Shown one piece after another: positions 14,407-63,712 of a DNA stretch of 64,000 bases. The DNA lies in NCBI GenBank assembly GCA_020696385.1, contig JAEHCQ010000007.1:56818-120817 (forward strand), in the 5' to 3' direction. The stretch's first letter is position 1, and every line of letters starts with the position of its first letter. The translations under genes were made by a program, and so were the position numbers. The notes beneath the pieces are model-generated. The model was not told where the DNA came from. It ran no database searches and saw nothing but the letters and a program-made list of their open reading frames with translations. This stretch comes from Methanobacteriota archaeon. GTDB taxonomy: Archaea; Thermoplasmatota; Thermoplasmata; SG8-5; JAGLSY01.

Positions 14407-15840
14407 GTGAAAATGACGACCAAAGAGCAGGCAAATGAGATATTGAAGAAAGAGAATGTCAAATGGGTGGAGGTCCAGTTCAGCGATGTCTTCGGCAGGA
14501 ACAGATGTGTCTTCCTCCCGGTTCGCAAGTTCGTGGATGGCCACGCATGGGAGCGCGGCGTGAATTTCGATGGATCTTCCATCGGGTTCCTGGCCACGGA
14601 TGACAGTGATATGAATGCCTATCCAGATCCAAATACCTTGATGGTCCTGCCTTTCGAGGATTCACCCGGTGAAAAGACCGCCATCGTCATATGCGACATA
14701 AGGGATGTGAATACGAAGCAAAACTTCTCGGGCGACCCGAGAAGCATAGCGAAGAACTCAGAAAGAGTTCTCCACGAACGTGGTTTTGATGGCGTAAATA
14801 TTCTATCCGAAATGGAATTCTTTGTTTTCAAATCCATGGAAGCAGCCCAGATAGAGAATGATGTCTGGGGCATGGATTCCAATATAGGTGGAGGAAGCCT
14901 GAAGGTCATTCCAACCCACATCAAACCATTGGTGGATCATGATTATATCATCAAGCCCAAGCAGGGTTATTTCCTCGCCCCTCCGGAAGATAGAGTGGCA
15001 GGATACCGTCACCAGCTTTCAAATCTCATGGAGGAATTTGGATTTCCTGTCAAGTACCATCACCATGAAAATGGGAATGGCCAGCATGAGATCGAATTTG
15101 AATTCATAGAAGGAGTTACGAAGCCAGCAGATGCATGTGTGATCTTCAAGCAGATGTCCAGATTATTGTCACAGGACAGAGGATTCGTCCCAACTTTCAT
15201 GCCAAAGCCGCTTTTCGCGGACCTGGGCAGTGGCCAGCATGCGCATCAATACCTTACAAAAGATGGGAAGAATGCATTTTTCGATGCGGATGATCCAGAT
15301 CATTTATCCCAGATAGGCAGATACTATATCGGTGGAATATTGGAATATGCCAGTGACATGGCCGCGATCACCAACCCGATCACGAATTCCTACAAAAGAT
15401 TGATACCTGAATTTGAAGCACCAGTCTTCAAATCATGGTCCTTCAGAAACCGCACTGCCCTGATAAGAGTGGCAGCACCCACCCACAAGGCCCATATCGA
15501 TGTGGAGCCAAGACAGGCAGATCCCACATGCAATCCTTATCTCGCATATTCCCTATTCATCCATGCAGGGCTTGAGGGGATCAAGAAGAAGATCGATCCA
15601 GGGGAGCCAGTTATTGGTGACGTGACCAAGCTTTCAAAGAGAGAGATGAAGGAGAAGGGAATAGAGATCCTGCCAACAACCCTCGAGAACGCACTTGAGT
15701 TCATGGAGACATCGGATTTCGTGAAGCGCATCCTGGGTCAGAACCTCTTCGATCATTATCTTGAAAAGAAGAATGAGGAGCTCTTTGCCAAGAGGATATA
15801 TGTCTCTCCATGGGAACATTACATGTATTTCAACAGTTGA
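14407..15840 (+). CDS. glnA: Glutamine synthetase type I
   Basis: FDGSSI, EMEFF, HHHE..GQHEI, TFMPKP, GSGQHAH, NSYKRLIP.FEAP, NRTALIR, NPYLA. Confidence 0.95.
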   Translation: MKMTTKEQANEILKKENVKWVEVQFSDVFGRNRCVFLPVRKFVDGHAWERGVNFDGSSIGFLATDDSDMNAYPDPNTLMVLPFEDSPGEKTAIVICDIRDVNTKQNFSGDPRSIAKNSERVLHERGFDGVNILSEMEFFVFKSMEAAQIENDVWGMDSNIGGGSLKVIPTHIKPLVDHDYIIKPKQGYFLAPPEDRVAGYRHQLSNLMEEFGFPVKYHHHENGNGQHEIEFEFIEGVTKPADACVIFKQMSRLLSQDRGFVPTFMPKPLFADLGSGQHAHQYLTKDGKNAFFDADDPDHLSQIGRYYIGGILEYASDMAAITNPITNSYKRLIPEFEAPVFKSWSFRNRTALIRVAAPTHKAHIDVEPRQADPTCNPYLAYSLFIHAGLEGIKKKIDPGEPVIGDVTKLSKREMKEKGIEILPTTLENALEFMETSDFVKRILGQNLFDHYLEKKNEELFAKRIYVSPWEHYMYFNS

Positions 15841-15952
15841 TGAACATGTATCACATGTATTTCAACAGTTGATTAATATATAGCATATACTTCGACAGTT
15901 ATTGAACAGACATAGCATGCACTTCAAGAATTAGACAATTTGGAAACATGTG
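15821..15952 (+). repeat. Degenerate ~30-32 bp tandem repeats derived from the glnA 3' end
   Basis: ACATGTATTTCAACAGTTGA exact at 15821 and 15853; diverged copies at 15884 and 15916, and a remnant at 15947. Confidence 0.8.
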
Positions 15953-18199: not shown

Positions 18200-19675
18200 A
18201 TGGGCATGTGGAAGAAAAACATAGACGGAGAAGAATATTTTTTGACCAAGAGTAAGTATATGAATGGTATCCAGTGTCCGAGATTATTGTACAAGGTGGT
18301 GAACATGCCAGATGATATCCCACCGCCTGATGAGGCCACCCAGTTCATTTTCAAGCAGGGTAATGAGGTTGGGGAAATGGCCAGGAAGGTATTTCCTGGT
18401 GGCATCCGCATCCAGATGTTCCCCTGGCATACTATCACCAAGAGGACGAAAGCGGCCCTCAACAGCCTGGCCGAGCACGTTTACGAGGCAGGGTTCCTTC
18501 ATGATGAAGTGGTCGTGCTTGTGGATGTCCTTAGAAAGCTGGACGGCAAGACCGTGGACATCATCGAAGTTAAACAATCCACAAGGCGAAAAGATGAGCA
18601 CATTCCGGATCTGGCAATACAGAAATACGTTGTTGAAGGAAACGGGTTCAAGGTCAATAAAACATTTTTAATGCATCTGAACCGCGACTACGTACATCCA
18701 GGCGGCGGAGATGCTGAGCTTCTGGCCATGGAGGATTGCACGGAGGAAGTGAACGAGCACCTGGCCACTGTGCCGGAAAGACTGGCTGCCATGAAAGAAA
18801 CATGCGAGCTTCATTCACCACCCAGAATGGACATCGGCCCGCATTGTACCAGCCCGAGAGAATGCGCGCTCATGCCCGAGTGCTGGGCACGAGTTCCAAA
18901 GCCATCGATCTTCAATATAACTGGCTACAGGAATAAATGGGATCTGTACGAGCAGGGAATTGTTCAACTAAAAGATGTGCCGGATGATATCAAGCTAAGC
19001 AATAGCCAGCAGGCGTTTCTGGACTCCTACAGACTTGGCCATCCGATAATAGATACCCGGGCGATCCAGGAAGAATTGGGTAAAATGGAAAAGCCAATTC
19101 ATTTCCTTGATTTTGAGACAATAAACTGGGCGGTTCCCAAGCATGAGGGGATGCGATCCTACATGCAGGTTCCCTTCCAGTGGTCCCTACACACACTGGA
19201 AGATGGGAAATTGGAGCACAAGGAATTTCTCTGGGACAACCAGGATGATCCACGATTGCAATTAACTGAGAAACTGCTGGATGCCCTCGGAGACAAGGGC
19301 TCGATAGTTGTTTATTCATCCTTCGAGAAGAGCCGATTGAACGAGCTGGCGGACGCGTTTCCAGAGCACCGCGATAGAATTAACGCGGTGGTCGATCGCT
19401 TATGGGACCAGCTGGAGATATTCAGGAACTTTTACACCGACGCAGCATTTGGAGGAAGCAATTCGATAAAGAACGTGCTGCCAGTACTTGTGCCGAATCT
19501 AAGCTACAAGGATCTGGAGATACAGCAGGGGGGACTAGCGATGGCCACCTTCGCCAAGTTCATCGAGATGAAGCCAGGCCAGGAAAAAGAAAAGATTAGA
19601 GATGCTCTTCTGAAATACTGCGAAAGGGATACGTTCGCGATGGTTGAGATTCATCGTAGGCTGGCGGAGCTTTGA
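18200..19675 (+). CDS. DUF2779-family nuclease: PD-(D/E)xK domain with 4-Cys Fe-S motif plus C-terminal RNase H-like exonuclease
   Basis: LTKSKY..GIQCPR, VDVL..IIEVK, HC..PRECALMPECW, LDFET, PFQWSLH, SIKNVLP, YCERD; start at the ATG after AAGGCGG. Confidence 0.82.
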   Translation: MGMWKKNIDGEEYFLTKSKYMNGIQCPRLLYKVVNMPDDIPPPDEATQFIFKQGNEVGEMARKVFPGGIRIQMFPWHTITKRTKAALNSLAEHVYEAGFLHDEVVVLVDVLRKLDGKTVDIIEVKQSTRRKDEHIPDLAIQKYVVEGNGFKVNKTFLMHLNRDYVHPGGGDAELLAMEDCTEEVNEHLATVPERLAAMKETCELHSPPRMDIGPHCTSPRECALMPECWARVPKPSIFNITGYRNKWDLYEQGIVQLKDVPDDIKLSNSQQAFLDSYRLGHPIIDTRAIQEELGKMEKPIHFLDFETINWAVPKHEGMRSYMQVPFQWSLHTLEDGKLEHKEFLWDNQDDPRLQLTEKLLDALGDKGSIVVYSSFEKSRLNELADAFPEHRDRINAVVDRLWDQLEIFRNFYTDAAFGGSNSIKNVLPVLVPNLSYKDLEIQQGGLAMATFAKFIEMKPGQEKEKIRDALLKYCERDTFAMVEIHRRLAEL

Positions 19676-19809
19676 GTAGCTCCGAGCGAGCATGCTAACC
19701 CGAGTTTTCTTTTGCACTGTAATACTTTTCTTTTGGAGGGTTAGCCAGCGCAGCGAGGATAAAAGAAAAGGCTTACGTGGGGATACACAGAAGGCTGGCA
19801 GAATTATAA
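19676..19809 (+). mobile_element. Small structured element (101 bp) plus 33-nt recoded duplicate of the host gene 3' end, copy A
   Basis: Shares CCGAGCGAGCAnGCT and the 25-nt AGCGAGGATAAAAGAAAAGGCTTAC with 44134-44310; 19777-19809 encodes VGIHRRLAEL* versus the gene end VEIHRRLAEL*. Confidence 0.75.
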
Positions 19810-19894
19810 ACATTGCATATGCCAGCAAAGTATATTCTCAACAATGTATATTCGGATCAGTACGAGCATGCCCCGGGGCGAGTGACGCAGACCT

Positions 19895-19932
19895 GGGGTA
19901 CTATATTCTATATCTCAGTGAGTGACAGTTGC
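19895..19932. repeat. Dispersed 38-bp repeat, copy 1 (core of a larger structured repeat)
   Basis: GGGGTACTATATTCTATATCTCAnnGAGTGACAGTTGC, 36/38 identical to 63585-63622. Confidence 0.85.
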
Positions 19933-20156
19933 GATGTGCCAGCAAGAGAATAAACTCCTCGCATTAATAGAGCGAGGAGTCAAATCAATCCCCGCCTCGA
20001 TCAAAGCAGGGGCGGGGTCTTTATCCTCACCCAGCATAACAATTCCATACGAGCTTGCGTAGCGCAAGATCAAAGCAAAAATGCAAGGCCGTATTTGATT
20101 ATGTAGGCTTGATGGAAAGGTATTTTAGATGCTATTCACTTAGTGAATCGGAGAGA

Positions 20157-21086
20157 ATGGTGAAAGAGATGAATAATCTGAATGAGATGGCCCAGTTAGT
20201 GCCATCTGATAAAAAATATCCTGTTATTTCTGTCAAGAACCGGGGCAGATCGTGGAATGAATTCACGAAAAAAGAATTAAAACATATAAAGAGTCAATTT
20301 GATGGTACCAATTTGACAATAAAGAAAGTTGGCCCACTTTCATTTTCTTTAATGTTGGGCTCGGATCTAAAATATCACTTTGAAGCGCTCGACAATAAAT
20401 CCAACAGAAAAGTCGCAATAATGATCTATGATACGCCTTTGTATTATGAGGGGCAATTAAGTTTGATAAACCATGTTATGGCTGATTTGAGTAGATCAAA
20501 GAAACATACCGATTATTTGATATTGATCTACTCTACGAATCAATTACCTAAGGACTATCGCTATTACCTTTCAAGCACACCCATGGTAAAACTGGAATTG
20601 GCGCTTTCCTGGGTTTATCAATTAATAAAATTCGAATATGAAAGCAATTTGAATAAAGAGCTAAACTCGGGAGAATTGGGGAGTGCTGTAAAGCGATATA
20701 CTGGCAATGCTATGCCATTAGGCGAATTCAGTCAGAATATCGGGACATTTCAGAGGGCTATCAACGAATTGAGGGATATCCCGGACTCAACAAGGTATTC
20801 AAAACAACGGCTGAATAATGCCATCCAGGCATTGGGATTGTATTTTGGAAATTACCTACATACTGATATCCGGTTGAAATGGAATATTGGACCTGACGGT
20901 GATCCTCGAACAATGAATATTCTTCCAGGATATTATATTGAACCATTCACAATAGTCGAAGATGCTATTGAAAAGGGAGATTCATTAGAAGAAATCTATA
21001 ACGATATAGTGGAGAAAGTTAAAAAGAACGTAATTCCACAATATGCAAAGCCAATAAAAGGAGGTGAATTGAAAAATGGGATTTGA
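20157..21086 (+). CDS. Hypothetical protein in low-GC islet; C-terminal region resembles DUF3806-type domains
   Basis: AT-rich ORF; ALGLYFGNYL...LKW...PFTIVEDAIEKG; start chosen at the ATG after GGAGAG. Confidence 0.6.
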   Translation: MVKEMNNLNEMAQLVPSDKKYPVISVKNRGRSWNEFTKKELKHIKSQFDGTNLTIKKVGPLSFSLMLGSDLKYHFEALDNKSNRKVAIMIYDTPLYYEGQLSLINHVMADLSRSKKHTDYLILIYSTNQLPKDYRYYLSSTPMVKLELALSWVYQLIKFEYESNLNKELNSGELGSAVKRYTGNAMPLGEFSQNIGTFQRAINELRDIPDSTRYSKQRLNNAIQALGLYFGNYLHTDIRLKWNIGPDGDPRTMNILPGYYIEPFTIVEDAIEKGDSLEEIYNDIVEKVKKNVIPQYAKPIKGGELKNGI

Positions 21087-21480
21087 TGCTTATTTAATCA
21101 CTGAAGGAGAGGAAAATGATATAGAACCTCCTACCGATTCTCGCTTATTTTCAAGTCTTATATTTGACATTGATTATCAAGAGGAATGCACTATGGAAAT
21201 GTTATCGAATTTATATAATCTGGATTTATCTCCTTTACGTCAAGTTGGAAGCGATTCAAGCGATCAGGCCTGGCAAGATCCGGGTAGTCTTTCGCAGGCC
21301 TTTGAATCATTGCTAGAGGCTATAGAAAGAGAAGGCGATGATTTCATTGGTATGCCTTTGAACGAGCATCTATTATATCCAGGCGATGTAACATCCATTA
21401 AAAAATCTCTAAGGGAGGTAATTGAGGGCTGTAATAAGGCATTGAAATCAGGAAAGAGAGTACAGTTGGTAATTAATTAA
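21076..21480 (+). CDS. Hypothetical acidic protein (immunity-protein-like)
   Basis: GGAGGTGA RBS; MGFDAYL start; 134 aa. Confidence 0.6.
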   Translation: MGFDAYLITEGEENDIEPPTDSRLFSSLIFDIDYQEECTMEMLSNLYNLDLSPLRQVGSDSSDQAWQDPGSLSQAFESLLEAIEREGDDFIGMPLNEHLLYPGDVTSIKKSLREVIEGCNKALKSGKRVQLVIN

Positions 21481-21641
21481 AGTCAACTCACTTTTAGAAT
21501 CGGCAACAGGGTAAGCATTGCCAGGCCGTGTTTGATTGAGGAGGAGGCGTGATTCCATACGAACGATTTTAAAGAACGTTCGCTATTCAATTATGGGTGA
21601 AGGCCATGAGCACGACTTAATCAAATGAGGAGGATGTTGAT

Positions 21642-22118
21642 ATGACGCGTTTACAAGTTCGTTTTACCCAGAAACGCCCTAATAATCAAGGATACTTGAT
21701 GGGCTGGATACGGATTTACATTAGTATTGATAATAATATCATTCACGGAATCCATACATCGGATGTTTATCCGCCATATGATAGTTTTCTTGATTTTTTC
21801 CAAGATATTTTACATAACAATTTGCCTACAAGATGCGATATATATGAGGAGGGAATATTTACAGTGTTCATTGCGGAAGAAGTGCCTAATTCCGATTTAG
21901 TTGAATTCAATATCTGTGTAAAAAAGGATGAATATACTGATTCAGATCTCAAATGTGTTTATTCTGATAAATTTAAAAAGCAAGTATTGGTTCGTGAGTT
22001 TATAACGAAATATCGCACATTTTTGTCAGATGAATACCGTCCAGAATCTTGGGAAGAAGTAGGCGGACCAATGCCAATGTCAAAATTGGAGCAAATTGAA
22101 AAGGAACTAACAAATTAA
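21642..22118 (+). CDS. Hypothetical protein in low-GC islet
   Basis: GAGGAGG RBS; 158 aa. Confidence 0.6.
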   Translation: MTRLQVRFTQKRPNNQGYLMGWIRIYISIDNNIIHGIHTSDVYPPYDSFLDFFQDILHNNLPTRCDIYEEGIFTVFIAEEVPNSDLVEFNICVKKDEYTDSDLKCVYSDKFKKQVLVREFITKYRTFLSDEYRPESWEEVGGPMPMSKLEQIEKELTN

Positions 22119-22134
22119 TTTCGTAGTGCCCTTC

Positions 22135-24207
22135 TCACCCCTCATAAAAGAACTTCAATTCCTCTTCGATATTCTTCATGTTCCTCATGCTCAGATCTTC
22201 AGGGAAATAATTCCTGTACTTCTGATATCCAAACCTCTTGTCCAGCAGGATGATCGCCGCCCTATCTGTTTCAGATCTGATACACCTGCCCATTGACTGG
22301 AGAACGCGATTGATGGCCGGGGACGTGTAGCCATAAGCTCGCCCATTACCCCTGCCGAATTTCGTATCATAATAATCGATAAGCTGGCTTTGCTCCAGAG
22401 ATGGAGGGGCGAAAGGCACTCCGACTATCATGACAGAATTGAGAAGATTGTCCTTGTAATCGATTCCTTCAGAAAGAGATCCGCCCATCACTCCGAGCAG
22501 AAGGCCACCCCAGGTGGATTTTAGATCGATAAGGGTATCCAGCATCCGTCTTTTCTGCGCCTTGTTCGAGGTCTGGGATTCTGCCAATATCTCTTTATCG
22601 GTTTCGATGCGGAAGCGAATTTCCTTCAGCATACTATAAGATGGGAAGAAGACCGCGACATTGCCAGGTATCACCTTGCAGGCCTTGCCAATGTGCTTCG
22701 CGATGCGCTCGTACATCGCATCAGATCTCTCATTGTAAAGAGTGGTGACATCATCCGCGACATATACTGGCCTATTGGCTGGCGGGAAGGGAGATGGATA
22801 GGTTCGAAGTATCTGAGAACCATTTTCAATTCCCAGGATATCTGCGAACATCTTTGTCGGAAATAGGGTTCCGCTCATTATGATGCTAGAATGAAATTCC
22901 TTGAATATCGGAGCGGAAATAACCGATGGATCCAGTAGCCTGAAGTAAAGCTTTGATCCATCCTTCTGGCTTGATATCCTGATCAGTCCCTCCAGATCCT
23001 GATTGTAACCCTCCAGAAACTCGCTCACAACAGCTGCGGAACTGCTCTGGCCCTTGACCATCCGGATCTCACCTATCTTTTTCAATTCCTTGATGAGCGA
23101 GTCAAGATCCATGGCTTCGAAAAGTGACTGGCCCATGATACCTTCTATTCTTGACAGGAAAACATCCTTATCGACAACTTCCTCTTTGCCAGGAGGAACC
23201 GCATCCAAGATCTTGCGTAATTCCTTCTTCATCATATTGAGTATGTGCGCGAGCTGTTGATTGGACATCTCGGATATGGCTTCCTGAAGCATGTTCGTGG
23301 TCAGACTTTGGGTGTAATAATTCCTTATTCTATCTGGTAGATTATGTGCCTCGTCAACTATCACGATGCACTCATCCAGTGACTTGTCAAATGATTCGAG
23401 AATTGTTTCCCTAATATCCTGGTCGAAGATATAATTGTAATCGCAGATGATGACATTGGCATCGGCCGCGGCCTTCAATGCCACCTTGTGAGGACAGGCT
23501 CGCTGACCCACAGCCACATCCTTCAATTCCTCAACATGAAGGATATTGGAATGTATCTGCCCTATCAGATCCTCATCTTCCGGAGCTTTGAAATAACTGC
23601 AGGTGCCTGTTTTCTGGCTGGTCCTGCATAGGAGCGTGAAGGCCGCATGAAATTCCTCAGAAATATCTCTGGGGCACATGGCCTGTTTTGAGATTATATC
23701 CACCACTTTTATCCTGGCATTGAAAATGGAATTGATCACCTTGAGAGTGTCAACCGCGATATAGTGCTGTGATTGTTTCGAGGTTAGGAAAAATACGACC
23801 TTGCCAGTCTTGAGAGATTCCGTGATCGCCGGTACAAGAGCAGCGGCGGTCTTTCCAATGCCAGTGGGAGCATAGGCAAGAAGGTGTTTATTCAATTTTA
23901 TGGCCGTGCTGGCATCCTTGATGAATTGTGCCTGTCCATCTCTGGCTGTAGGGTGTGGAAAATATGGAATGGTGGGATGCTTGGCATGAGCTTCGGTCAT
24001 TTTAGGAGACGAAGCGAAGGATGGATCTTTCTTCTTGAGTTGGTCAAAAGATATTATCTCGGCAGGAGGAGATGAGGCTCTGCGACCAGGTTGGCTGGCC
24101 TGGCCGCCACTTGTTTGTCGACTACATTTTGGACAAATGGTCTCTTTCGTTCCACCCCTTTTTCGTATCTTCATCAGGGTTCCACAGCTACCACAGAACA
24201 TGGACAT
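22135..24207 (-). CDS. Rad3/XPD-family Fe-S DNA helicase with N-terminal zinc ribbon
   Basis: APTGIGKT, four Fe-S Cys, CDYNYIF, VDEAHN, MSGTL, FFPSY, SEGIDY, QSMGRCIRSETDR. Confidence 0.92.
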   Translation of the reverse strand: MSMFCGSCGTLMKIRKRGGTKETICPKCSRQTSGGQASQPGRRASSPPAEIISFDQLKKKDPSFASSPKMTEAHAKHPTIPYFPHPTARDGQAQFIKDASTAIKLNKHLLAYAPTGIGKTAAALVPAITESLKTGKVVFFLTSKQSQHYIAVDTLKVINSIFNARIKVVDIISKQAMCPRDISEEFHAAFTLLCRTSQKTGTCSYFKAPEDEDLIGQIHSNILHVEELKDVAVGQRACPHKVALKAAADANVIICDYNYIFDQDIRETILESFDKSLDECIVIVDEAHNLPDRIRNYYTQSLTTNMLQEAISEMSNQQLAHILNMMKKELRKILDAVPPGKEEVVDKDVFLSRIEGIMGQSLFEAMDLDSLIKELKKIGEIRMVKGQSSSAAVVSEFLEGYNQDLEGLIRISSQKDGSKLYFRLLDPSVISAPIFKEFHSSIIMSGTLFPTKMFADILGIENGSQILRTYPSPFPPANRPVYVADDVTTLYNERSDAMYERIAKHIGKACKVIPGNVAVFFPSYSMLKEIRFRIETDKEILAESQTSNKAQKRRMLDTLIDLKSTWGGLLLGVMGGSLSEGIDYKDNLLNSVMIVGVPFAPPSLEQSQLIDYYDTKFGRGNGRAYGYTSPAINRVLQSMGRCIRSETDRAAIILLDKRFGYQKYRNYFPEDLSMRNMKNIEEELKFFYEG

Positions 24208-24371: not shown

Positions 24372-27300
24372 ATGAAACATAATTCATCCATAAAATCGAA
24401 TGATATAGGATCTGCCAGGATACCTTCCTCCAAAGGCTTTACAAATGGCAATTCCGGCCATAACCATACTGGTTTCACCAACGGGAGTACAAAGGCACAG
24501 AAGAACATGACCAACATTGGTGGAATGACCAATGGTGTTCAGAGATCTGGCATGGTGAATGGCAGTGGGATGGTAAATGGTAGCGGGCTCGTTAATGGCA
24601 ACGTTATGGTCAATGGAAATGGACTTGTGAACGGTAATGGTTTGGTAAATGGGAACGGACTCGTTAATGGCAACGGCATGGTCAATGGAAATGGGCTTGT
24701 GAACGGGAACGGTCTCGTCAATGGAACTGGCATGACAAATGGCCTCGTCGGCACTCCAAAGCTCAGTATAAACAATAAAGCAATGGCTCCGAAGAAGACC
24801 TCTTATGTTCTTATCGTGGTCTTCTTACTGATGGTCACCTCGTCCTTCGCAGTATTGACATTCGATGATTCCATAGTGGGAATGCGGGTCGATGGTGATT
24901 TCGCAGACTGGGATGATCAATACCTCATTTCAGACACAAATACAATATCGACAACCTCACTGGACATAGATGAATATGGGGTTTCGACCGATGATAATGG
25001 TGATATGTTCATCTATGCCAAGGCCAAGGGAACCTGGATGGGATCATCAGAAGCAGAGGGCTTGTTGGTCTTCATAGATTCAGATGGTACGGAAAGCACT
25101 GGATACTCCATCGAAGGAATGGGTGCAGACCATGTACTTGAGGTATACGGTTGGGATGGCAAGATATCTGGCAGGCAATTCGGGACCTTCAATGGGGAGG
25201 ACAGTGATGACTATACCTGGTCCTTCGGAAGTGCGAGAGGGGCCATAGGTGAAGAGCATCTGGAAGCAGGCATCCCAATTACACCATCTGCAAATTATAA
25301 ATTATTGTTCATGACCAAGTCTGGAGATGATATTGGCGAGATATGCCCGGCTCAGATATCTGAAGGAAAGGGATCTGTTGTTCTGAAGCAGACACCAGCA
25401 GATGTCAATGGAATAATATCAGCCAATAAATTAATGGATATTCAGGTAACGGCCTATGGAAAGGACGTTACTGTAAGCTCAATTTCAATGAGCGATTCAG
25501 CAGCTAGTGTCTCAGGATTGCCTGTATCGATCAAAGCAGGCGAGACCATCACCCTGACAGCTGAAAAGACCACACCAGCAGCTGGAACACTGATGATGGC
25601 CAAGGTTAATGCCGTGGTGTGTGATGTTCCATATTCCATTACCGGAGAGGGGCTGAAGGCATATGCCTCTGCTGCCCCATCTACAATAACGATCGATGGT
25701 GCATTCGCAGATTGGACGGGCATTAATAAGTCAGCAGATCCGGCAGGAGATGTGAGCAATCCAGGAATAGACATAGTGGAATTCGCTTCTGCAAACACGA
25801 CCACCAATGCCTTCTTCTACCTCAGAACGGACGATGATGGCAAGATGATGGCAGGCTCCCAGGTACCATATAGCAGATACAAACCGACACCATCTACCCA
25901 GCCAAGTACACCAAGTACCAATGGCTCTAGCCAGCCATCTACACCTTCAACACCCAAGAAACTTCCGAAGTTGAGTGGAGAGGATGTTACAAGGATCTAC
26001 ATAGACACCATCCAAAGCATGGATCCATTGGATGGCATGGGAGCTGATTTCCTTATCGAGATAAAGGGAATGAGAGGAAAAGTGACGTCCAGCAAGCTTT
26101 ACTCTTATCCTAATATGGAATTCATAAAGGATGTAAGTGCTGCAAGTGGAAAGCTGGAGCTGGAATCAGGGGTTGGCTTATCAGACATTCAATTCACAAA
26201 TAACATTTCAATATATTTCGAATCAACAGACTGGCAAGGAAACTATGAGATCACCGAGATCATAGACTGCCAGGAATTACAACAGGGGACTAGAGGAGAT
26301 AGTGAAGCAGGGCCAAGTTATACGACCCCTTCCGGACTCAAGGGCCAATGGACCTTTAATGAGGGCTCCGGAGGCACAGCCTATGATATCAGTGGCAATT
26401 ATCACAATCTCACTTTATATAATACCGCAGACTGGGCTACTGGGCTCAATGATACTGGAGCGGTGTTTGACGGAGTGGCGAGTTTAATAGGCAATGATGA
26501 ATTTCCAAGCTATACGGAGATATCCATCGGATACTGGGTACAGAATTCTACAGTGGGTATTCCCAATATTGCCAAGTACAATGACACATGGGACTGGGGA
26601 TATATCGACTACTACACAATGCTTACATCTGATAGCACAGGATACATCGCTTTCGGTGTCAATGCCACTGACAATGTGACAGTAGATAACCTGCCTGCTC
26701 TAGGCAGTGATTGGCGCCATATCATGATCACGGCCAGCAATATCAGTAAAGAGGTCGCGGTCTACTATGATGCAGTTCTTCAAGGATCCAAGACATTTAC
26801 TGGAGATCTAAAAGAGATCGGAAATGGCTGGCTCATGGGCGGCTGGGATGAAGGGATGCCCAGTGATGGAACCATGGATGAATGGAAGATATTCGATAAT
26901 GTCCTTTCAGCAAGCCAGATAACCGCCGAGTATGAAGAGTTCCACCCAGATGCATATGCAGGTCCTGATCAGAATGTGGATGAAGACACTGTCATGTCAT
27001 TCGATGGCTCTGGATCAACTGATAATGATGGTGTAACCAATTGGACCTGGACCTTCACAGATGATGGAGCCAAGACCATATATGGGATCTCGCCATCCTA
27101 TACCTTCAATACGCCTGGCACTTACAATGTCACCCTCACAGTGACCGATGCTTTCATGGGAAACACGGACGAGGACTGGGTACATATCACGGTATTGGAT
27201 GCTACATCTCCAATAATTGAGGATACGACTATTGGTGCACCTATCAACAATGGCACCTTCAATATCACAGCTAAGATTACCGACTTTTCATCCTTGGCAG

Positions 27301-42885: not shown

Positions 42886-44037
42886 TTATTCCCGCAATAC
42901 CTGCCCGGCAATGACCATTTTCTGGACTTCACTAGTACCTTCGTATATCTCGGTTATTTTGGCCTCACGGTACATCCTTTCTACTGCATAATCCTTAATG
43001 TATCCGTAGCCACCATGTATCTGGACAGCATCCGATGTCACTTCTCTGGCGATCTTGGAAGCGTACAGCTTGGCCATCGCGCTTTCTTTGCTGAATCTCG
43101 CTCCCTGGTCCTTCAGATACGCAGCTCTGTAGACGAGATACCTTGCGGCCTCGATCTTTGTCGCCATGTCAGCCAGCATCCACTGGATGGCCTGGAATTT
43201 ACCAATTGGCCTTCCGAACTGCTCGCGCTCCTTCGCATATCTTATGGACTCTTCCATCGCTCCCTCAGCAATGCCAAGTGCCTGGGCGGCAATACCAACC
43301 CTGCCACCGTCCAGCGTGGCCATTCCGATCCTGAAGCCATCTCCTTCCTTGCCGAGGAGATTTTCTTTTGGAACTCGGCAGTTTTCGAATACGAGTTCCG
43401 ACGTTGCGGAAGCACGCACACCCATCTTGTCCTCGACAGTTCCGTAAGTGTAGCCAGGAGTTCCTTTTTCAACAATGATCGTGCTCAATCCCTTGGTTCC
43501 CTTCGAGGGATCCGTGGAAACAATTATGATAGCGACATCGGCCTCGCAGCCGCTTGTAATGAATATCTTGTCGCCATTTATGATATAATCATCCCCATCA
43601 AGAACAGCCTTGGTTCTGACCGCACCAGCATCGGAACCCGCGCTTGGTTCTGTGAGCGCGAAGGCGCCCAGCTTCTCACCACGTGCCAGTGGCTTGAGGA
43701 ACTTTTCTTTTTGTTCCTCAGTTCCGAACTTGTAGATCGGATAGCAGCAGACCGAATTATGCACAGCCATGATCACACTGGTACTGGCGCAAACTTTGGC
43801 GATCTCCTCGATAACAATGGCATAAGAAATGGAATCCACACCAGCCCCGCCATATTCCTTCGGAACTGCCAATCCGAGCATGTTCAGCTTGCCCATCTTC
43901 TTCAGCACGTCCCATGGAAACTCTCCGCTCATGTCAATGTCATGAGCGATGGGCTTGACCTCTTCCTCGGCAAAGCGCCTGGCCATCGTGCGTACCATTT
44001 CCTGTTCCTTGGTAAGATTGAAATCCATTTGATCCAC
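42886..44037 (-). CDS. Acyl-CoA dehydrogenase (butyryl-CoA dehydrogenase-like)
   Basis: [50 protein letters not shown]. Confidence 0.95.
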
Positions 44038-44100
44038 TTCCGCATGCTGTTATAGGACTTGGGAACTTATGATTAGATAAATATGTTTTGAAAACCTTAA

Positions 44101-44310
44101 CTACTTCTTTACAACAATGCTAAGAACATCCTCGTAAGCCTTTTCTTTTATCCTCGCTCCTCTGGCCTGGCTCCTGAATCAAGCTGTTAGCTTGACAAAA
44201 TAGTTGCATGGACTTCGTCCACAACTAAAAAAGAAAAAATCGCCGGAGCTCGGCTATGCCGAGATTCTGAAAGCTCAGCTCTGCTGAGATTCAGCCTGCT
44301 CGCTCGGGTA
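44101..44310 (-). mobile_element. Small structured element (177 bp) plus 33-nt recoded duplicate of the host gene 3' end, copy B
   Basis: Same terminal motifs as 19676-19776 with four extra internal hairpins; 44133-44101 encodes EDVLSIVVKK*, identical in protein to the gene end 44343-44311. Confidence 0.78.
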
Positions 44311-45420
44311 TCATTTCTTGACAACAATGCTCAGCACGTCCTCGTCCTTCAAAACATGGCCAATACTTACTCGCTGGCCAGGGAACTTCGCACTTGGCCC
44401 CCAGACTCGTGCGTATCTGAACTTTTCTCTAAAATCACGATGAAGACTATCGCAAACCACACCCACAGTGGAATCCTCCTTGATGACCAGTGGTTCTATC
44501 AGATCCGCATCCTGGCCCTGTGGTTTGAGGAATATCCTGACGAACTGGCAGATATCGAATATTTCTTGTTTGAATTGCTCGATCATAATGTCTTTCTCGG
44601 CGGACATGCTGAAGACATTCCAGCCATCCAGTGCCTCGATCACCTTGTCCACCTCCTCCTTTGGAAGCAGATCGATCTTATTGAGCACGACTATGGCATC
44701 GACATATACTTTATTCCCGGAGAGATAATCTATGAGCTGGTCCTCATCGATATCTTCCCTCAGGACGATATCGGCATTGATCACTCCATAAGAGGACATG
44801 ATGTTCTTGACCATTTCCTCATCCATCTTGGTCATTTCCACGGTGTGATTGACATTCAGGCCACCCCTGAAGCTCTTGTAAATTCGAATATCGACCGGCC
44901 TCGCATTGAGGCGCATGCCAGCCTTGTAAAGTTCACGGACGATTATATCGATGTCATATCGGAAGACATCGACCATCAGGATGAGCAGATCCGCGCTTCT
45001 AGCTGCTGCTATCACCTCTCTGCCACGCCCTTTTCCCTTGGACGCGTCCTTGATTATACCTGGCAGATCCAAGATCTGCACCTTCGCACCCTGATAATCC
45101 ATTATTCCTGGCACGACATCCAGGGTGGTGAATTCATAACGACCAACTTCACTGGTGGCGTCGGTTATCTTGTTAAGGAGAGTTGATTTTCCCACGGATG
45201 GAAATCCCACGAGAGCGACTGTGGCATTACCTGATTTCTTCACAGCATATGATTTACCACCACCCGAGCTGGCTGCTCTTCTTTTTTCCTGATCATCCTT
45301 GAGCCTCGCCATCTTGGCTTTCAGCTTGCCAATATGATGCTGGGTGTTCTTATTGTACTTCGTCTTCGCAATCTCTGCCTCGATGTCCGCGATCTGTTCT
45401 TCAATATTACCCATGTTCAA
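44311..45420 (-). CDS. DRG/RBG1-family GTPase with TGS domain
   Basis: YNKNT.HHIG.LKAK, GFPSVGKST, YEFTTL, DLPGII, GKGRG, ARVWG.SAKF.GQ. Confidence 0.95.
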   Translation of the reverse strand: MNMGNIEEQIADIEAEIAKTKYNKNTQHHIGKLKAKMARLKDDQEKRRAASSGGGKSYAVKKSGNATVALVGFPSVGKSTLLNKITDATSEVGRYEFTTLDVVPGIMDYQGAKVQILDLPGIIKDASKGKGRGREVIAAARSADLLILMVDVFRYDIDIIVRELYKAGMRLNARPVDIRIYKSFRGGLNVNHTVEMTKMDEEMVKNIMSSYGVINADIVLREDIDEDQLIDYLSGNKVYVDAIVVLNKIDLLPKEEVDKVIEALDGWNVFSMSAEKDIMIEQFKQEIFDICQFVRIFLKPQGQDADLIEPLVIKEDSTVGVVCDSLHRDFREKFRYARVWGPSAKFPGQRVSIGHVLKDEDVLSIVVKK

Positions 45421-51194: not shown

Positions 51195-51267
51195 GGGCCC
51201 GTGGGGTAGTTTGGTATCCTTGTACTCTGGGGGGGTATAAACTCCGGTTCAAATCCGGGCGGGCCCA
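51195..51267 (+). tRNA. tRNA-Pro (GGG); CCA not encoded
   Basis: GGGCCCG/CGGGCCC acceptor, GTACT-CTGGGGG-GGTAT anticodon arm, GGTTCAAATCC; canonical position after rpoN. Confidence 0.85.
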
Positions 51268-51348
51268 CTTTTTTACTTTAAAAGCCTTTTAGTACACCTA
51301 TAACGGCCGTCCAGCACAAATTGATTATGGTGGCCCAACCCCCAGTCA

Positions 51349-52437: not shown

Positions 52438-52602
52438 ATGAAGAACATCATGAAAGAAGTGATTAGAATACTGATCGGACGCCGAAAAGGCGGTGCAGCC
52501 TATGGATTCAGCAATTCGGTAGAATCCCGTGCAGCCTATGGATTCAGCAATTCGGTAGAATCCCTGATAACAGGACAAAGAATCAGGACATCAATAGTCT
52601 GA
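52438..52602 (+). CDS. Small peptide (54 aa) with a duplicated AAYGFSNSVES segment
   Basis: GAGGTG RBS; MKNIMKEVIRILIGRRKGGAAYGFSNSVESRAAYGFSNSVESLITGQRIRTSIV; below the ORF-track cutoff. Confidence 0.5.
   Translation: MKNIMKEVIRILIGRRKGGAAYGFSNSVESRAAYGFSNSVESLITGQRIRTSIV
52493..52564 (+). repeat. Perfect 36-bp tandem duplication
   Basis: GTGCAGCCTATGGATTCAGCAATTCGGTAGAATCCC x2. Confidence 0.95.
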
Positions 52603-58194: not shown

Positions 58195-58327
58195 ACTGGT
58201 TAAACTAGTTACTTAAAATAAATGGGCCCTTCTTGCCTGAAATCTGCCTGGGCCCACTTTTTTACTTTAAAAGCCTTTTAGTACACCTATATCGACGACC
58301 CAATATCAACTCATTTTGATATGCCAC

Positions 58328-63584: not shown

Positions 63585-63622
63585 GGGGTACTATATTCTA
63601 TATCTCAACGAGTGACAGTTGC
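63585..63622. repeat. Dispersed 38-bp repeat, copy 2
   Basis: 36/38 identical to 19895-19932, same orientation. Confidence 0.85.
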
Positions 63623-63712
63623 AGAGTGCTCTGATATTCGGAACCCCGTCTGTAGGGCGAGGGGGTCAAACTTTCTGAAACCCCCAGCACCCGTAAAAAT
63701 AATGATCATCAA

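What the first reader, a model, noticed from the sequence alone, without database searches (positions are those of the whole stretch)
44101..44343. Second independent copy of the gene-end element, behind the DRG GTPase: all 7 differences synonymous
Seen (minus strand): the gene ends GAG GAC GTG CTG AGC ATT GTT GTC AAG AAA TGA. A 177-bp element follows (TAC-CCGAGCGAGCAGGCT...AGCGAGGATAAAAGAAAAGGCTTAC), then GAG GAT GTT CTT AGC ATT GTT GTA AAG AAG TAG. Both encode EDVLSIVVKK*, with 7 nt differences, all silent, including TGA versus TAG. As in copy A, the junction is at TTAC|G, on a codon boundary, 33 nt from the end. Inference: the same offset in two unrelated genes points to a mechanism with a fixed length (guide, duplication or co-conversion tract), though n=2. 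It also shows the element can occupy a conserved housekeeping gene without changing its protein.
Basis: seen in the sequence. Interest (0 to 1): 0.92.

Follow-up and report, generated by a model that had tools for sequence, protein, structure and literature searches.

The report
Structured element carrying a replacement gene end
Behind a housekeeping GTPase gene of an uncultured archaeon sits a small folded non-coding element that arrived together with a foreign copy of the gene's last ten codons and pushed the original gene end downstream, and dozens of genes in this genome show the same thing.

Summary
The DRG-type GTPase gene (44311-45420, minus) ends EDVLSIVVKK*. A TAC spacer and a 174-nt element follow, then a second EDVLSIVVKK* copy with 7 differences, all silent. 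The "fixed 33-nt" reading is wrong: 26 of 34 family members in this genome (27 with copy A) have such a flank duplicate, and lengths run from 17 to 312 nt. Four relatives have an empty DRG site. The downstream copy is the resident gene end; the upstream copy, spacer and element are the arrival. Across 18 loci the copy pairs differ like two working alleles (68 silent and 31 replacement changes; pN/pS 0.12). The 177 nt of DRG before the junction also lose sister-species similarity. My best reading is that a gene end plus element was recombined in from a diverged relative. Homology in the gene anchored the left side. On the right, the element's exact 3' end was joined illegitimately upstream of the resident gene end. 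The family occurs in 27 of 121 sampled Thermoplasmata genomes, has no Rfam match, and has a covarying fold. That fold pairs a 3' purine tract with one U-rich strand and matches a second in parallel, like the triple-helix caps of MALAT1/PAN RNAs. No reverse transcriptase was found in the genus. Similar gene-end stacks also exist without the element. The joining mechanism is inferred.

The parts
44311..45420 (-). DRG-type GTPase gene (369 aa) in its present form, ending with the upstream copy E1
   Evidence: ORF. Pfam MMR_HSR1, MMR_HSR1_Xtn and TGS. Orthologues in G001-G004.
44344..44520 (-). The last 177 nt of the gene before E1. This tract has lost sister-species similarity and is probably part of the imported DNA.
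   Evidence: Third-codon-position identity to G002 is 33/59 here against 237/300 in nt 1-900 of the gene (Fisher p=4e-4).
44311..44343 (-). E1: the upstream, translated copy of the last 10 codons plus TGA. It is read here as the incoming allele.
   Evidence: E1 is further from G001/G002/G003 than E2 (18/20/18 against 21/24/22 of 33 identical). It is derived at 6 of 7 differing sites by my reading of the alignment rows.
44308..44310 (-). Spacer S (TAC) between the stop codon and the element's L-box
   Evidence: In other copies the spacer is 0-55 nt and unique to each locus. At the C50 locus the spacer is homologous to the native downstream flank.
44134..44307 (-). Element X proper (174 nt). It is a composite variant with inserted hairpin modules.
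   Evidence: Family membership. The covariance model R1 finds the family in 27/121 genomes.
44293..44307 (-). L-box CCGAGCGAGCAGGCT, the 5' strand of the basal helix
   Evidence: RNAalifold pairs it with the 3' box with compensatory changes, e.g. G6-C76 becomes A-U in 5 sequences.
44227..44239 (-). The single U-rich strand TTTTTTCTTTTTT of this copy. Canonical copies have two such strands, U1 and U2.
   Evidence: Read and compared with the copies. This copy lacks the segment CACTGTAATACTTGTTCTTTTG that carries U2 and GTAA in its close relative on contig C33.
44152..44164 (-). 3' box CAGAGGAGCGAGG, the 3' strand of the basal helix
44139..44149 (-). Purine tract AAAAGAAAAGG
   Evidence: In the family it is the Watson-Crick complement of U2 and the parallel match of U1.
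44134..44138 (-). 3' terminus CTTAC; the junction lies after C 44134
   Evidence: TTAC/TTCC/TCAC covary with GTAA/GGAA/GTGA just 5' of U2.
44101..44133 (-). E2: the displaced resident gene end (10 codons plus TAG), not translated
   Evidence: It is contiguous with the native flank, which is 92% identical to G002 over 284 nt. TAG is also the stop in G002, G003, G004 and G021.
42886..44100 (-). Native downstream flank and acyl-CoA dehydrogenase gene (42886-44037)
19643..19809 (+). Copy A: E1 19643-19675, spacer 19676-19681, basic 95-nt element 19682-19776, E2 19777-19809
   Evidence: G002 has no element here.

Best explanation
The 177 nt behind the DRG gene are a 3-nt spacer plus one member of a large family of short, non-coding, modular elements (X). 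X elements lie just 3' of co-oriented genes in part of the class Thermoplasmata. On the gene-sense strand, X folds into a long hairpin. The L-box pairs with a 3' box, and above that a covarying stem A encloses two U-rich strands. A 3' purine tract and the last four bases then fold back onto the U-rich strands. This gives a helix (probably a triple helix) whose blunt end is the element's last base, TTAC. The second EDVLSIVVKK* copy (E2) is the gene's original end. The translated copy (E1), the spacer and X arrived together from a diverged relative in which X already lay just behind the DRG stop codon. The left side of the incoming DNA was resolved by homologous recombination inside the gene. 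The right side ended exactly at X's structured 3' terminus. It was joined by short or imperfect homology to a point 33 nt upstream of the resident stop codon, so the resident end was pushed downstream as a relic. I infer that the folded 3' end protects a single-stranded intermediate from 3' trimming and lets it prime on the opened homologous region. Shown here: the family, its fold covariation, the empty sites, which copy is resident, allele-like divergence, and the variable duplicate length. Inferred: the nature of the intermediate, the joining chemistry, and any role of X as an RNA 3'-end stabiliser.
For: (1) Family and position. By regex there are 34 strict copies in G000 and 33 by the covariance model. 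24 of 34 have a co-oriented gene end within 100 nt upstream (22 ORFs, 2 tRNAs). X was found in 27 of 121 sampled genomes of the class.
(2) Fold. Stem A has 8 of 8 pairs with changes on both sides and is 88.7% paired. The covariation score for the given structure as a whole (stem A plus helix 2) is 0.363 against 0.174 in shuffles, with 0 of 500 shuffles reaching it. RNAalifold independently finds stem A and L-box:box pairing. Among 21 asymmetric purine tracts A(a)GA(b), U2 fits the antiparallel complement (x=b in 19/21, y=a in 16/21). U1 fits the parallel register (p=a in 13/21, p=b in 1/21). Permutation over 16 distinct types gives p<1e-4, 0.008 and 0.03. Distant families keep the pattern with other tracts. 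Terminal TTAC/TTCC/TCAC covaries with GTAA/GGAA/GTGA.
(3) Empty DRG sites occur in G001, G002, G003 and G004.
(4) E2 is contiguous with the native flank and nearer to relatives than E1.
(5) Allele-like divergence. 18 loci and 374 codons give Sd 68, Nd 31, pS 0.284 and pN 0.035. The binomial p is 5e-13 against 'one copy drifting freely'. At locus C46, changes derived in the relic copy are 7 silent to 2 replacement.
(6) The imported tract reaches upstream of the junction. Third-position identity between G000 and G002 is 33/59 in the 177 nt before E1 against 237/300 upstream (p=4e-4).
(7) At the C50 locus the spacer is homologous to the native downstream flank of the relic copy and of G001/G002. 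So E1 plus spacer is a diverged allele of gene end plus flank.
(8) In the 26 script-detected duplicates, the second copy starts 0-26 nt after the 3' box, at or a few bases past X's 3' end.
(9) No RVT_1 reverse transcriptase was found in the 4 genomes of the genus.
Against: No donor genome carrying E1-TAC-X without E2 was found (0 hits). No read-level data exist for this organism, because the one run laid held only contigs of relatives. The drop in similarity before E1 could instead reflect a recombination in G002, and another window of the gene (451-540) is also somewhat low. At copy A the polarity is ambiguous: E1 is the G002-like copy, and E2 heads a 2465-nt insertion absent from G002. At two loci tested, E1 and E2 are equally far from the relatives. 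Gene-end duplicates with the same silent bias also occur without any X: 14 loci with Sd 15 and Nd 9. So X is not needed for the duplication, and its 3' end may only mark where the incoming piece stopped. The DRG copy itself has only one U-rich strand and so cannot form the full triple helix. Support for the Hoogsteen strand is moderate (p=0.03), and copies are related by descent. RNA or ssDNA existence, end protection and self-priming are untested.
Confidence: 0.5

Rival explanations
1. Site-specific (Campbell-type) integration. A small circle [gene end + spacer + X] is inserted by a tyrosine recombinase acting in trans at a site formed by X's 3' end and a look-alike in the gene. This would resemble prophage e14 in E. 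coli icd, which supplies a replacement 3' end and leaves a 163-bp pseudo-icd.
For: The topology is the same as e14/icd (passages read in PMC6379469). Four Phage_integrase hits exist in G000. In three loci the gene sequence just upstream of the first copy resembles X's last 10-14 nt, e.g. GAAAGGGCCTTCGG against GAAAAGGCTTACGG. tRNA T-loop junctions occur.
Against: No integrase lies in or next to the elements. Each locus would need its own attachment sequence. The junctions show no common core and are fuzzy, with extra G-rich bases in some copies. In DRG the divergent tract extends at least 177 nt upstream of the junction, which a circle of E1+S+X does not predict. X-less stacks have units of 18-62 nt, too short for double-stranded circles. 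X was not found in 44 viral contigs that carry the L-box 15-mer, and the right-end pattern gave 0 viral hits.
Confidence: 0.15
2. RNA-mediated insertion. The stable 3' part of an mRNA (gene end + 3' UTR + X, capped by the triple helix) is copied into DNA at a nick inside the gene (target-primed) and resolved by homology on the 5' side.
For: X is co-oriented with the upstream gene in 24/34 copies. The insert's right boundary equals the predicted RNA 3' terminus. The A-rich 3' tract and the variable duplicate length resemble SINE/LINE insertions (recalled). The local tandem [gene end-X][gene end-X] arrays at C33:72721-73100 and C47:27149-27600 share near-identical interiors.
Against: No RVT_1 was found in G000 (94% complete), G001, G002 or G003. 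The two copies differ like alleles of different lineages (pN/pS 0.12), which copying the cell's own mRNA cannot give. Spacers do not match the resident downstream flank. No RNA run is available.
Confidence: 0.1
3. Transposase-made long target-site duplication followed by divergence in place. This is the first reader's 'fixed length' idea, or an IS200/IS605-like element that targets TTAC.
For: Several duplicates are perfect (64, 49, 32, 24, 22, 19 and 17 nt). One Y1 (IS200-type) transposase gene exists in the genome. TTAC is the IS608 target (recalled).
Against: Duplicate length varies from 17 to 312 nt. A unique spacer lies between copy 1 and X. Divergence in place predicts pN/pS near 0.55, but 0.12 is observed (p=5e-13). 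In DRG the constrained copy carries 6 of the 7 derived changes and the free copy none (my reading). TTAC lies inside the element, at its 3' end, and covaries with an internal GTAA. There are no terminal inverted repeats. The single Y1 gene lies inside a flank duplicate, not inside an X.
Confidence: 0.05
4. Assembly artefact: two co-existing strains' alleles were wrongly joined in a metagenome-assembled genome.
For: The genome is a 50-contig bin, and the two copies look like alleles.
Against: The same architecture recurs at 26 loci by script threshold (27 with copy A) with a conserved structured element. It also occurs in other genomes assembled separately. At the tRNA-Ser locus, G000 and G002 share it with a homologous spacer and the same 1-nt insertion in the relic copy. 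The shared sequence between X's end and the gene is too short for an assembler overlap.
Confidence: 0.02

Closest known systems
ENE-type triple-helix 3'-end elements (KSHV PAN, MALAT1/MENbeta, plant and fungal transposon dENEs)
   Same: A stem encloses a U-rich internal loop. A downstream genomically encoded A-rich tract pairs by Watson-Crick with the 3' U-rich strand and lies parallel to the 5' U-rich strand, and C sits opposite G in both. The position is at the 3' end of transcription units. This architecture is recalled from the MALAT1/PAN literature. A 2026 review, of which I read passages only (PMC13541005), lists viral, lncRNA and plant/fungal transposon ENEs; none of the 12 of 15 passages shown mentions an archaeal ENE.
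   Different: X occurs in archaea, as a multicopy modular repeat with inserted hairpin modules. It has an extra basal helix (L-box:box) and a 4-bp terminal clamp (TTAC:GTAA). There is no poly(A) and no RNase P/tRNA-like processing signal. RNA existence and stabilisation are untested. The DRG copy has only one U-rich strand.
Integrative elements that carry a replacement 3' gene end (e14 and phage 21 in E. coli icd; tRNA-targeting elements)
   Same: The gene stays intact because the incoming DNA supplies a near-synonymous 3' end, and the resident end is left as a downstream pseudo-fragment (e14: 163-bp pseudo-icd; PMC6379469 passages).
   Different: X has no integrase, no cargo and no common core. 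The same small element carries a different gene end at each locus, duplicate lengths are 17-312 nt, and the imported tract seems to reach upstream of the junction.
Homology-facilitated illegitimate recombination (HFIR) in naturally transformable bacteria
   Same: Foreign DNA is anchored by homology on one side and joined through a few base pairs on the other (PMC6382021 passages: RecA-dependent, 3-10 bp segments, low efficiency).
   Different: HFIR is described in bacteria in laboratory crosses. Here the illegitimate joint lies upstream of the anchor's end, so it duplicates rather than deletes. It coincides with the end of a structured element and recurs at dozens of gene ends in natural archaeal genomes.
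MITEs and IS200/IS605-derived palindromic elements
   Same: Short, non-coding, multicopy and hairpin-rich. TTAC is the IS608 target (recalled). One Y1 transposase is present in the genome.
   Different: X has no terminal inverted repeats and no short fixed target duplication. TTAC is the element's own paired 3' end. No autonomous relative was found.

Membership tests
ENE-like triple-helix 3'-end element | U-rich internal loop closed by stems | tested here: met
   Stem A has 8/8 covarying pairs. L-box:box pairing is found by RNAalifold. U1 and U2 lie inside the loop.
ENE-like triple-helix 3'-end element | Downstream A-rich tract that is Watson-Crick complementary to the 3' U-rich strand | tested here: met
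   x=b in 19/21 and y=a in 16/21 asymmetric tracts, with permutation p<1e-4 and 0.008. Helix 2 is 78.6% paired. The pattern is kept in distant families.
ENE-like triple-helix 3'-end element | 5' U-rich strand parallel to the tract (Hoogsteen register) | tested here: inconclusive
   p=a in 13/21 against p=b in 1/21. Over 16 distinct types it is 9/16, permutation p=0.03. The second G of the tract is faced by G, not C, in two variants. The DRG copy lacks a second U-rich strand.
ENE-like triple-helix 3'-end element | Exists as RNA and protects the 3' end from decay | not testable with these tools
   No RNA run was listed.
MITE | Terminal inverted repeats and a short target-site duplication of fixed length | tested here: not met
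   The ends are CCGAGCGAGC... and ...GGCTTAC, which are not inverted. Duplicates are 17-312 nt.
IS200/IS605-derived element | Inserted 3' of a TTAC-type target that stays outside the element; Y1 transposase partner | tested here: not met
   TTAC is the element's 3' end and covaries with an internal GTAA. The only Y1 gene is unrelated in sequence to X's ends.
Integrase-borne element with att duplication (e14/icd type) | Gene 3' end replaced by an element-borne copy, with the resident end displaced | tested here: met
Integrase-borne element with att duplication (e14/icd type) | Own integrase and an identical core at both junctions | tested here: not met
   No ORF of that kind lies in the 174 nt. 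The integrase hits lie on C47 and C1. The junctions have no shared core.
Non-LTR retroposon / SINE-like | Reverse transcriptase available in the genome | tested here: not met
   PF00078 was found in 0 of 4 genomes of the genus, at completeness 94, 78, 93 and 74%.
HFIR-type import | Foreign tract anchored by homology on one side | tested here: inconclusive
   In DRG, 33/59 against 237/300 third positions are identical to G002 (p=4e-4). At two other loci E1 and E2 are equidistant from relatives.
HFIR-type import | Microhomology at the illegitimate joint | tested here: inconclusive
   2-14 nt of imperfect similarity between X's end and the gene upstream of copy 1 was seen in several loci. No statistical test was made.
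Diversity-generating retroelement (TR/VR) | Adenine-specific differences between repeats and a reverse transcriptase | tested here: not met
   The differences are C/T, G/T, G/T, C/A, A/G, G/A and A/G. No reverse transcriptase was found.

The most novel reading that the evidence does not exclude
X is a protein-independent mobile module. Its triple-helix cap defines and protects the 3' end of a single-stranded copy (ssDNA taken up from relatives, or RNA) of 'gene end + X'. That capped end survives trimming and primes synthesis on the homologous region it has just invaded. In this way the element writes itself, and a foreign gene end, in front of the resident one. Archaeal genomes of this group would then carry, behind many genes, ordered stacks of displaced gene ends. 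These stacks would be a readable fossil record of successive allele imports. They would also be the first ENE-type triple helix outside eukaryotes and their viruses.
Probability: 0.2. Interest if true: 0.92.

Novelty: new variant of a known kind. Interest (0 to 1): 0.8.

Why it matters
Three things would follow if this holds. (1) A conserved, multicopy fold with triple-helix geometry and no Rfam match (region searched: 43900-44500) would be present in a quarter of the sampled Thermoplasmata genomes. This would extend ENE-type 3'-end caps to archaea and give a testable handle on archaeal RNA (or ssDNA) end protection. (2) The stacks of gene ends, with or without X, show that working 3' ends of genes are repeatedly overwritten by alleles from diverged relatives while the old end is kept. 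That is a direct, datable trace of inter-lineage recombination in uncultured archaea. It is also a way for a selfish or useful 3' module to enter essential genes at no cost to the protein. (3) For annotation, short 'pseudo C-termini' behind genes and tRNA 3' halves in these genomes are relics of this process and not random debris.

Tried and rejected
**Fixed 33-nt mechanism.** Rejected by the spread of 17-312 nt.

**Rfam.** Only a sub-threshold sR32 match was found (13.5 bits against a gathering score of 40, E 0.43) in 43900-44500.

**Donor search.** A degenerate pattern for EDVLSIVVKK* gave 0 hits in metagenome contigs and 0 in genome contigs. The own genome is left out of those scans.

**Right-end pattern.** It gave 4 genome contigs (Thermoplasmata and Methanomassiliicoccales MAGs by record title) and 1 metagenome contig.

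**Viruses.** The right-end pattern gave 0 hits. The L-box 15-mer hit 44 viral contigs, and 0 of the 44 have the rest of X.

**Reverse transcriptase.** None was found in the genus. G004, which belongs to another genus, has one hit.

**Y1 transposase.** There is one gene, and it lies inside a 312-nt flank duplicate. I took its closeness to an X as coincidence.

**Sequencing runs.** No RNA holder was listed. The one DNA run had a small share of the words. Laid at 80% likeness, it gave only contigs of related organisms. Two low-depth contigs (2.4 and 2) join 44106 or 44118 to 44345 with 28 or 16 other letters between. This fits relatives without the element but is no evidence about this organism or its habitat.

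**Single-sequence folds.** Folds of the DRG and copy-A regions were not clearly better than shuffles (z -1.6 and -1.9). The structural case rests on covariation.

**Run-length scoring.** My first run-length scoring of U1/U2 against the tract did not discriminate because of low complexity. In one search the x value was wrong because of a regex fault, and it was corrected.

**Outgroup polarisation.** mis-aligned the 33-nt DRG copy and its result is discarded. One search, with an anchor, covered only part of it. The DRG polarisation I give is my own reading of the alignment rows printed.

**Scan of long-ORF ends.** Most of the 63 hits without an L-box are internal repeats of repetitive proteins or antisense frames. 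Only about 14 short-gap cases at ORF ends were kept, and these ORFs are stop-to-stop frames, not validated genes.

**Literature.** Searches found no description of such elements or of archaeal ENEs. Of PMC13541005, PMC6382021 and PMC6379469 I read passages only. Supplements were closed and were not consulted.

Full report
**1. The observation.**
On the minus strand the ORF 44311-45420 (369 aa) carries MMR_HSR1, MMR_HSR1_Xtn and TGS domains, so it is a DRG-type GTPase. It ends GAG GAC GTG CTG AGC ATT GTT GTC AAG AAA TGA at 44343-44311. Then follow TAC and 174 nt running from CCGAGCGAGCAGGCT to AAAAGAAAAGGCTTAC (44310-44134). After that comes GAG GAT GTT CTT AGC ATT GTT GTA AAG AAG TAG at 44133-44101. 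There are seven differences and all are silent.

**2. A family, and a rule.**
The element (X) gives 25 BLAST matches in the window's own genome, G000, which is 2.28 Mb in 50 contigs and 94% complete. I searched with the conserved L-box, the conserved 3' box CAGCRCAGYGAGG and a purine tract, and found 34 strict copies. Variants with degenerate boxes are missed, e.g. those at C2 and C44:99257.

In 26 of the 34 copies, the sequence right after X's 3' end repeats the sequence that lies upstream of X, at the script's threshold. Copy A is a 27th case, seen by eye. The repeat lengths run from 17 to 312 nt, so the shared 33 nt of the two window copies is a coincidence.

The upstream copy (c1 or E1) ends at a gene end. 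For 22 of 34 copies this is a co-oriented ORF of at least 70 codons, and for 2 of 34 it is a co-oriented tRNA, in each case within 100 nt. Homology between the two copies stops at the stop codon or at the tRNA 3' end. Between c1 and the L-box lies a spacer of 0-55 nt that is unique to each locus.

**3. Which copy is the resident one.**
G001, G002 and G003 (same genus) and G004 (same family) have the DRG gene followed directly by the intergenic region and the acyl-CoA dehydrogenase gene, with no X and one gene end. E2 is contiguous with that native flank, which is 92% identical to G002 over 284 nt. E2 also shares TAG with G002, G003, G004 and G021.

E2 is nearer than E1 to each same-genus relative: 24 against 20, 21 against 18 and 22 against 18 of 33 positions. 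Reading the rows printed, E1 is the derived copy at 6 of the 7 differing sites, one site is unresolved, and E2 is derived at none. An unconstrained relic should change faster than a translated copy, not slower, so divergence in place does not fit.

**4. Allele-like divergence is general.**
I dropped 6 of the 26 duplicate-bearing loci because no ORF end was found (they are tRNA or tandem loci). For 20 of the 26 the script found an ORF end, and 18 of those gave codons to compare. These 374 codons gave 68 silent and 31 replacement differences over 239.8 silent and 882.2 replacement sites, so pS is 0.284 and pN is 0.035. If one copy had drifted freely, the replacement share should be about 0.67. 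The observed 31 of 99 has a binomial p of 5e-13.

With outgroups at locus C46:100316, changes derived in the relic copy are 7 silent to 2 replacement, and in the translated copy 5 to 2. So both copies evolved as working gene ends. They are alleles of different lineages brought together. The divergence ranges from 0 to about 21%, which suggests donors from the same population up to other species. At two loci E1 and E2 are equally far from G001-G003.

**5. The imported tract.**
Along the DRG gene, third-codon-position identity between G000 and its sister G002 is 0.73-0.90 over nt 1-900. In the 177 nt before E1 it is 33/59 (0.56). That is the level seen between G000 and the more distant G001 and G003 (0.59, 0.56). 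The Fisher p is 4e-4. This fits an import that extends upstream of the visible junction, with a homologous crossover near nt 900. I cannot exclude that G002 is the recombinant instead.

At the C50 locus the duplicate is 312 nt. It covers the end of an IS200-type tnpA, the IS end and a whole tRNA. There the 18-nt spacer after c1 is homologous to the native flank after c2 and to the flanks in G001 and G002. So c1 plus spacer is a diverged allele of 'gene end plus flank', with X sitting 18 nt behind the tRNA in the donor.

**6. The fold.**
The alignment comprises 37 minimal copies: 20 from G000, 15 from relatives G001-G004, and 2 from contigs found by pattern search.
- *Stem A:* compensatory changes occur at 8 of 8 pairs and 88.7% of cells are paired. 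The covariation score for the given structure as a whole (stem A plus helix 2) is 0.363 against 0.174 in shuffles (0 of 500 shuffles reach it) and it falls when the partners are slid.
- *Basal helix:* RNAalifold, run blind, finds stem A and also pairs the L-box with the 3' box. For example, G6-C76 is replaced by A-U in 5 sequences.
- *U-rich strands:* inside stem A lie two U-rich strands, and behind the 3' box lies a purine tract A(a)GA(b). In the 21 of 37 copies whose tract is asymmetric, U2 is its antiparallel complement (x=b in 19/21, y=a in 16/21). U1 matches in the parallel sense (p=a in 13/21, p=b in 1/21). Over the 16 distinct types the permutation p values are <1e-4, 0.008 and 0.03.
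- *Other tract variants:* AAAGAAAAAAG, AAAAAGAAGAA, AAAAGAAAGAG and, in other families, AAAGAAAGCGTTTG facing CAAATGCTTTCTTT keep the rule.
- *The terminus:* the last four bases covary with four bases just 5' of U2 (TTAC:GTAA, TTCC:GGAA, TCAC:GTGA).

So the element's last base is the blunt end of a helix. This is the reason for the constant 'TTAC|G' junction. The geometry is that of ENE-type triple helices with an encoded A-rich tract; that architecture is recalled, and a 2026 review read in passages lists no archaeal case. Support for the third strand is moderate. Whether the folded molecule is RNA or single-stranded DNA is unknown.

The DRG copy is a composite with inserted hairpin modules and only one U-rich strand (44227-44239). 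It could form the duplex but not the full triplex.

**7. Distribution.**
A covariance model of the family finds it in 27 of 121 sampled genomes of the class at E<=1e-5. It is multicopy in every sampled family of its own order except one of the two f3 genomes, and it is present in four further families. Record titles name Thermoplasmata and Methanomassiliicoccales MAGs. Flank duplicates also occur in G002 and in distant genomes such as G005 (59 nt) and G048 (78 nt, 55 identical, mostly silent or conservative changes). The tRNA-Ser locus is shared by G000 and G002, with a homologous spacer and the same 1-nt insertion in the relic. That insertion therefore predates their split.

**8. X is not required for the stacking.**
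Scanning 3336 long-ORF ends, 63 have a downstream copy of the last 66 nt against 0 in the control. Many of these are internal protein repeats. However, about 14 are gene ends repeated 2-5 times with gaps of 0-46 nt and no X. They show the same silent bias (Sd 15, Nd 9; pS 0.248, pN 0.033), and the stop codon is kept in 11 of 14.

In G000 the orthologue of a G002 X-bearing gene has the gene end three times, separated by TTAC. So the underlying process is repeated overwriting of gene 3' ends by incoming alleles, with retention of the old end. Where the donor carried X, the incoming piece ends at X's terminus. Where it did not, the piece ends a few to about 46 nt past the stop.

**9. Mechanism.**
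What is shown: one boundary is fixed by X's structured 3' end, and the other side is homologous. What I infer is a sequence of steps. A single-stranded 3' tail that is non-homologous beyond the stop codon is trimmed back until homology or the folded cap stops the trimming. The tail then pairs through a few bases within the region opened by strand invasion and primes synthesis, which duplicates the resident gene end.

Several observations fit this. The junctions are fuzzy, and some show G-rich extra bases or G-richer starts of c2. Several loci show imperfect similarity between X's end and the gene just upstream of c1. It resembles homology-facilitated illegitimate recombination, which is known in bacteria (passages).

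The rivals are:
- a trans-acting integrase acting on small circles (same topology as e14/icd), which is not favoured by the upstream tract, the absence of a common core, and the 18-62-nt X-less units;
- RNA-templated insertion, which is not favoured because no reverse transcriptase was found in 4 of 4 genomes of the genus and because of the allele-like divergence;
- a transposase-made target duplication, which is contradicted by the length spread and pN/pS;
- an assembly artefact, which is contradicted by recurrence across loci and genomes.

**10. Verdict.**
The 'fixed offset' interpretation is refuted, while the idea of a systematic mechanism is upheld in another form. The element belongs to no described family I could find. 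The combination is new in my searches: an archaeal ENE-like capped module, gene ends replaced by foreign alleles, and stacks of relic ends. The component processes have known relatives. The mechanism remains an inference that needs reads, 3'-end mapping and genetics.

Noticed in passing
window 15818-15911: The last ~27 nt of a long ORF (stop at about 15840) plus 5 nt are repeated three to four times in tandem with growing divergence (ATTACATGTATTTCAACAGTTGATGAA-catgt...). This is a gene-end stack without any X element.
   Followed up: partly
window 51195-51329 and 58240-58318: The last 18 nt of tRNA-Pro (51195-51268) plus 61 nt of flank recur 7 kb downstream at 80% identity. The 7 kb between encode an HTH regulator, a CAAX-type protease, a zinc dehydrogenase and an ABC transporter, with no integrase. 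It is an island bounded by a displaced tRNA end.
   Followed up: partly
window 19677-22141: A 2465-nt insertion relative to G002 starts right after the stop codon of the copy-A gene. It comprises spacer, X, E2 and three ORFs (343, 134 and 158 aa) with no Pfam match.
   Followed up: partly
window 19895-19939 and 63585-63629: A second, unrelated repeat family (45 nt, 89% identical) has many matches in G002.
   Followed up: no
G000 contig C50:1230-2360 (locus L060): An IS200-type Y1 transposase gene, its hairpin end and an 87-nt tRNA are duplicated as a 312-nt diverged block on either side of an X element. The two tRNA copies differ by compensatory changes in the T-arm.
   Followed up: yes
G000 contig C2:9743-9785: A gene end (TCTGGGGCATGTAG) occurs three times, separated by TTAC, and a fourth decayed copy follows. 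The orthologous gene in G002 carries an X element between two copies. This may be a footprint of X loss.
   Followed up: partly
G000 C33:72721-73100 and C47:27149-27600: Tandem arrays of gene end-X-gene end-X. The two X copies share a near-identical interior but differ in stem A or in inserted modules, and one copy is truncated at its 3' side.
   Followed up: partly
X copies at the tRNA-Ser locus of G000 (C11, about 632370-632514) and G002 (L087): The orthologous X copies differ by a 46-nt pair of hairpin modules inserted between U1 and U2. The internal hairpin modules therefore seem to be mobile themselves.
   Followed up: no
window 52493-52564: A perfect 36-nt tandem duplication.
   Followed up: no
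window 24548-24745: An 18-nt coding tandem repeat of eight or more units. It is probably a repetitive protein.
   Followed up: no
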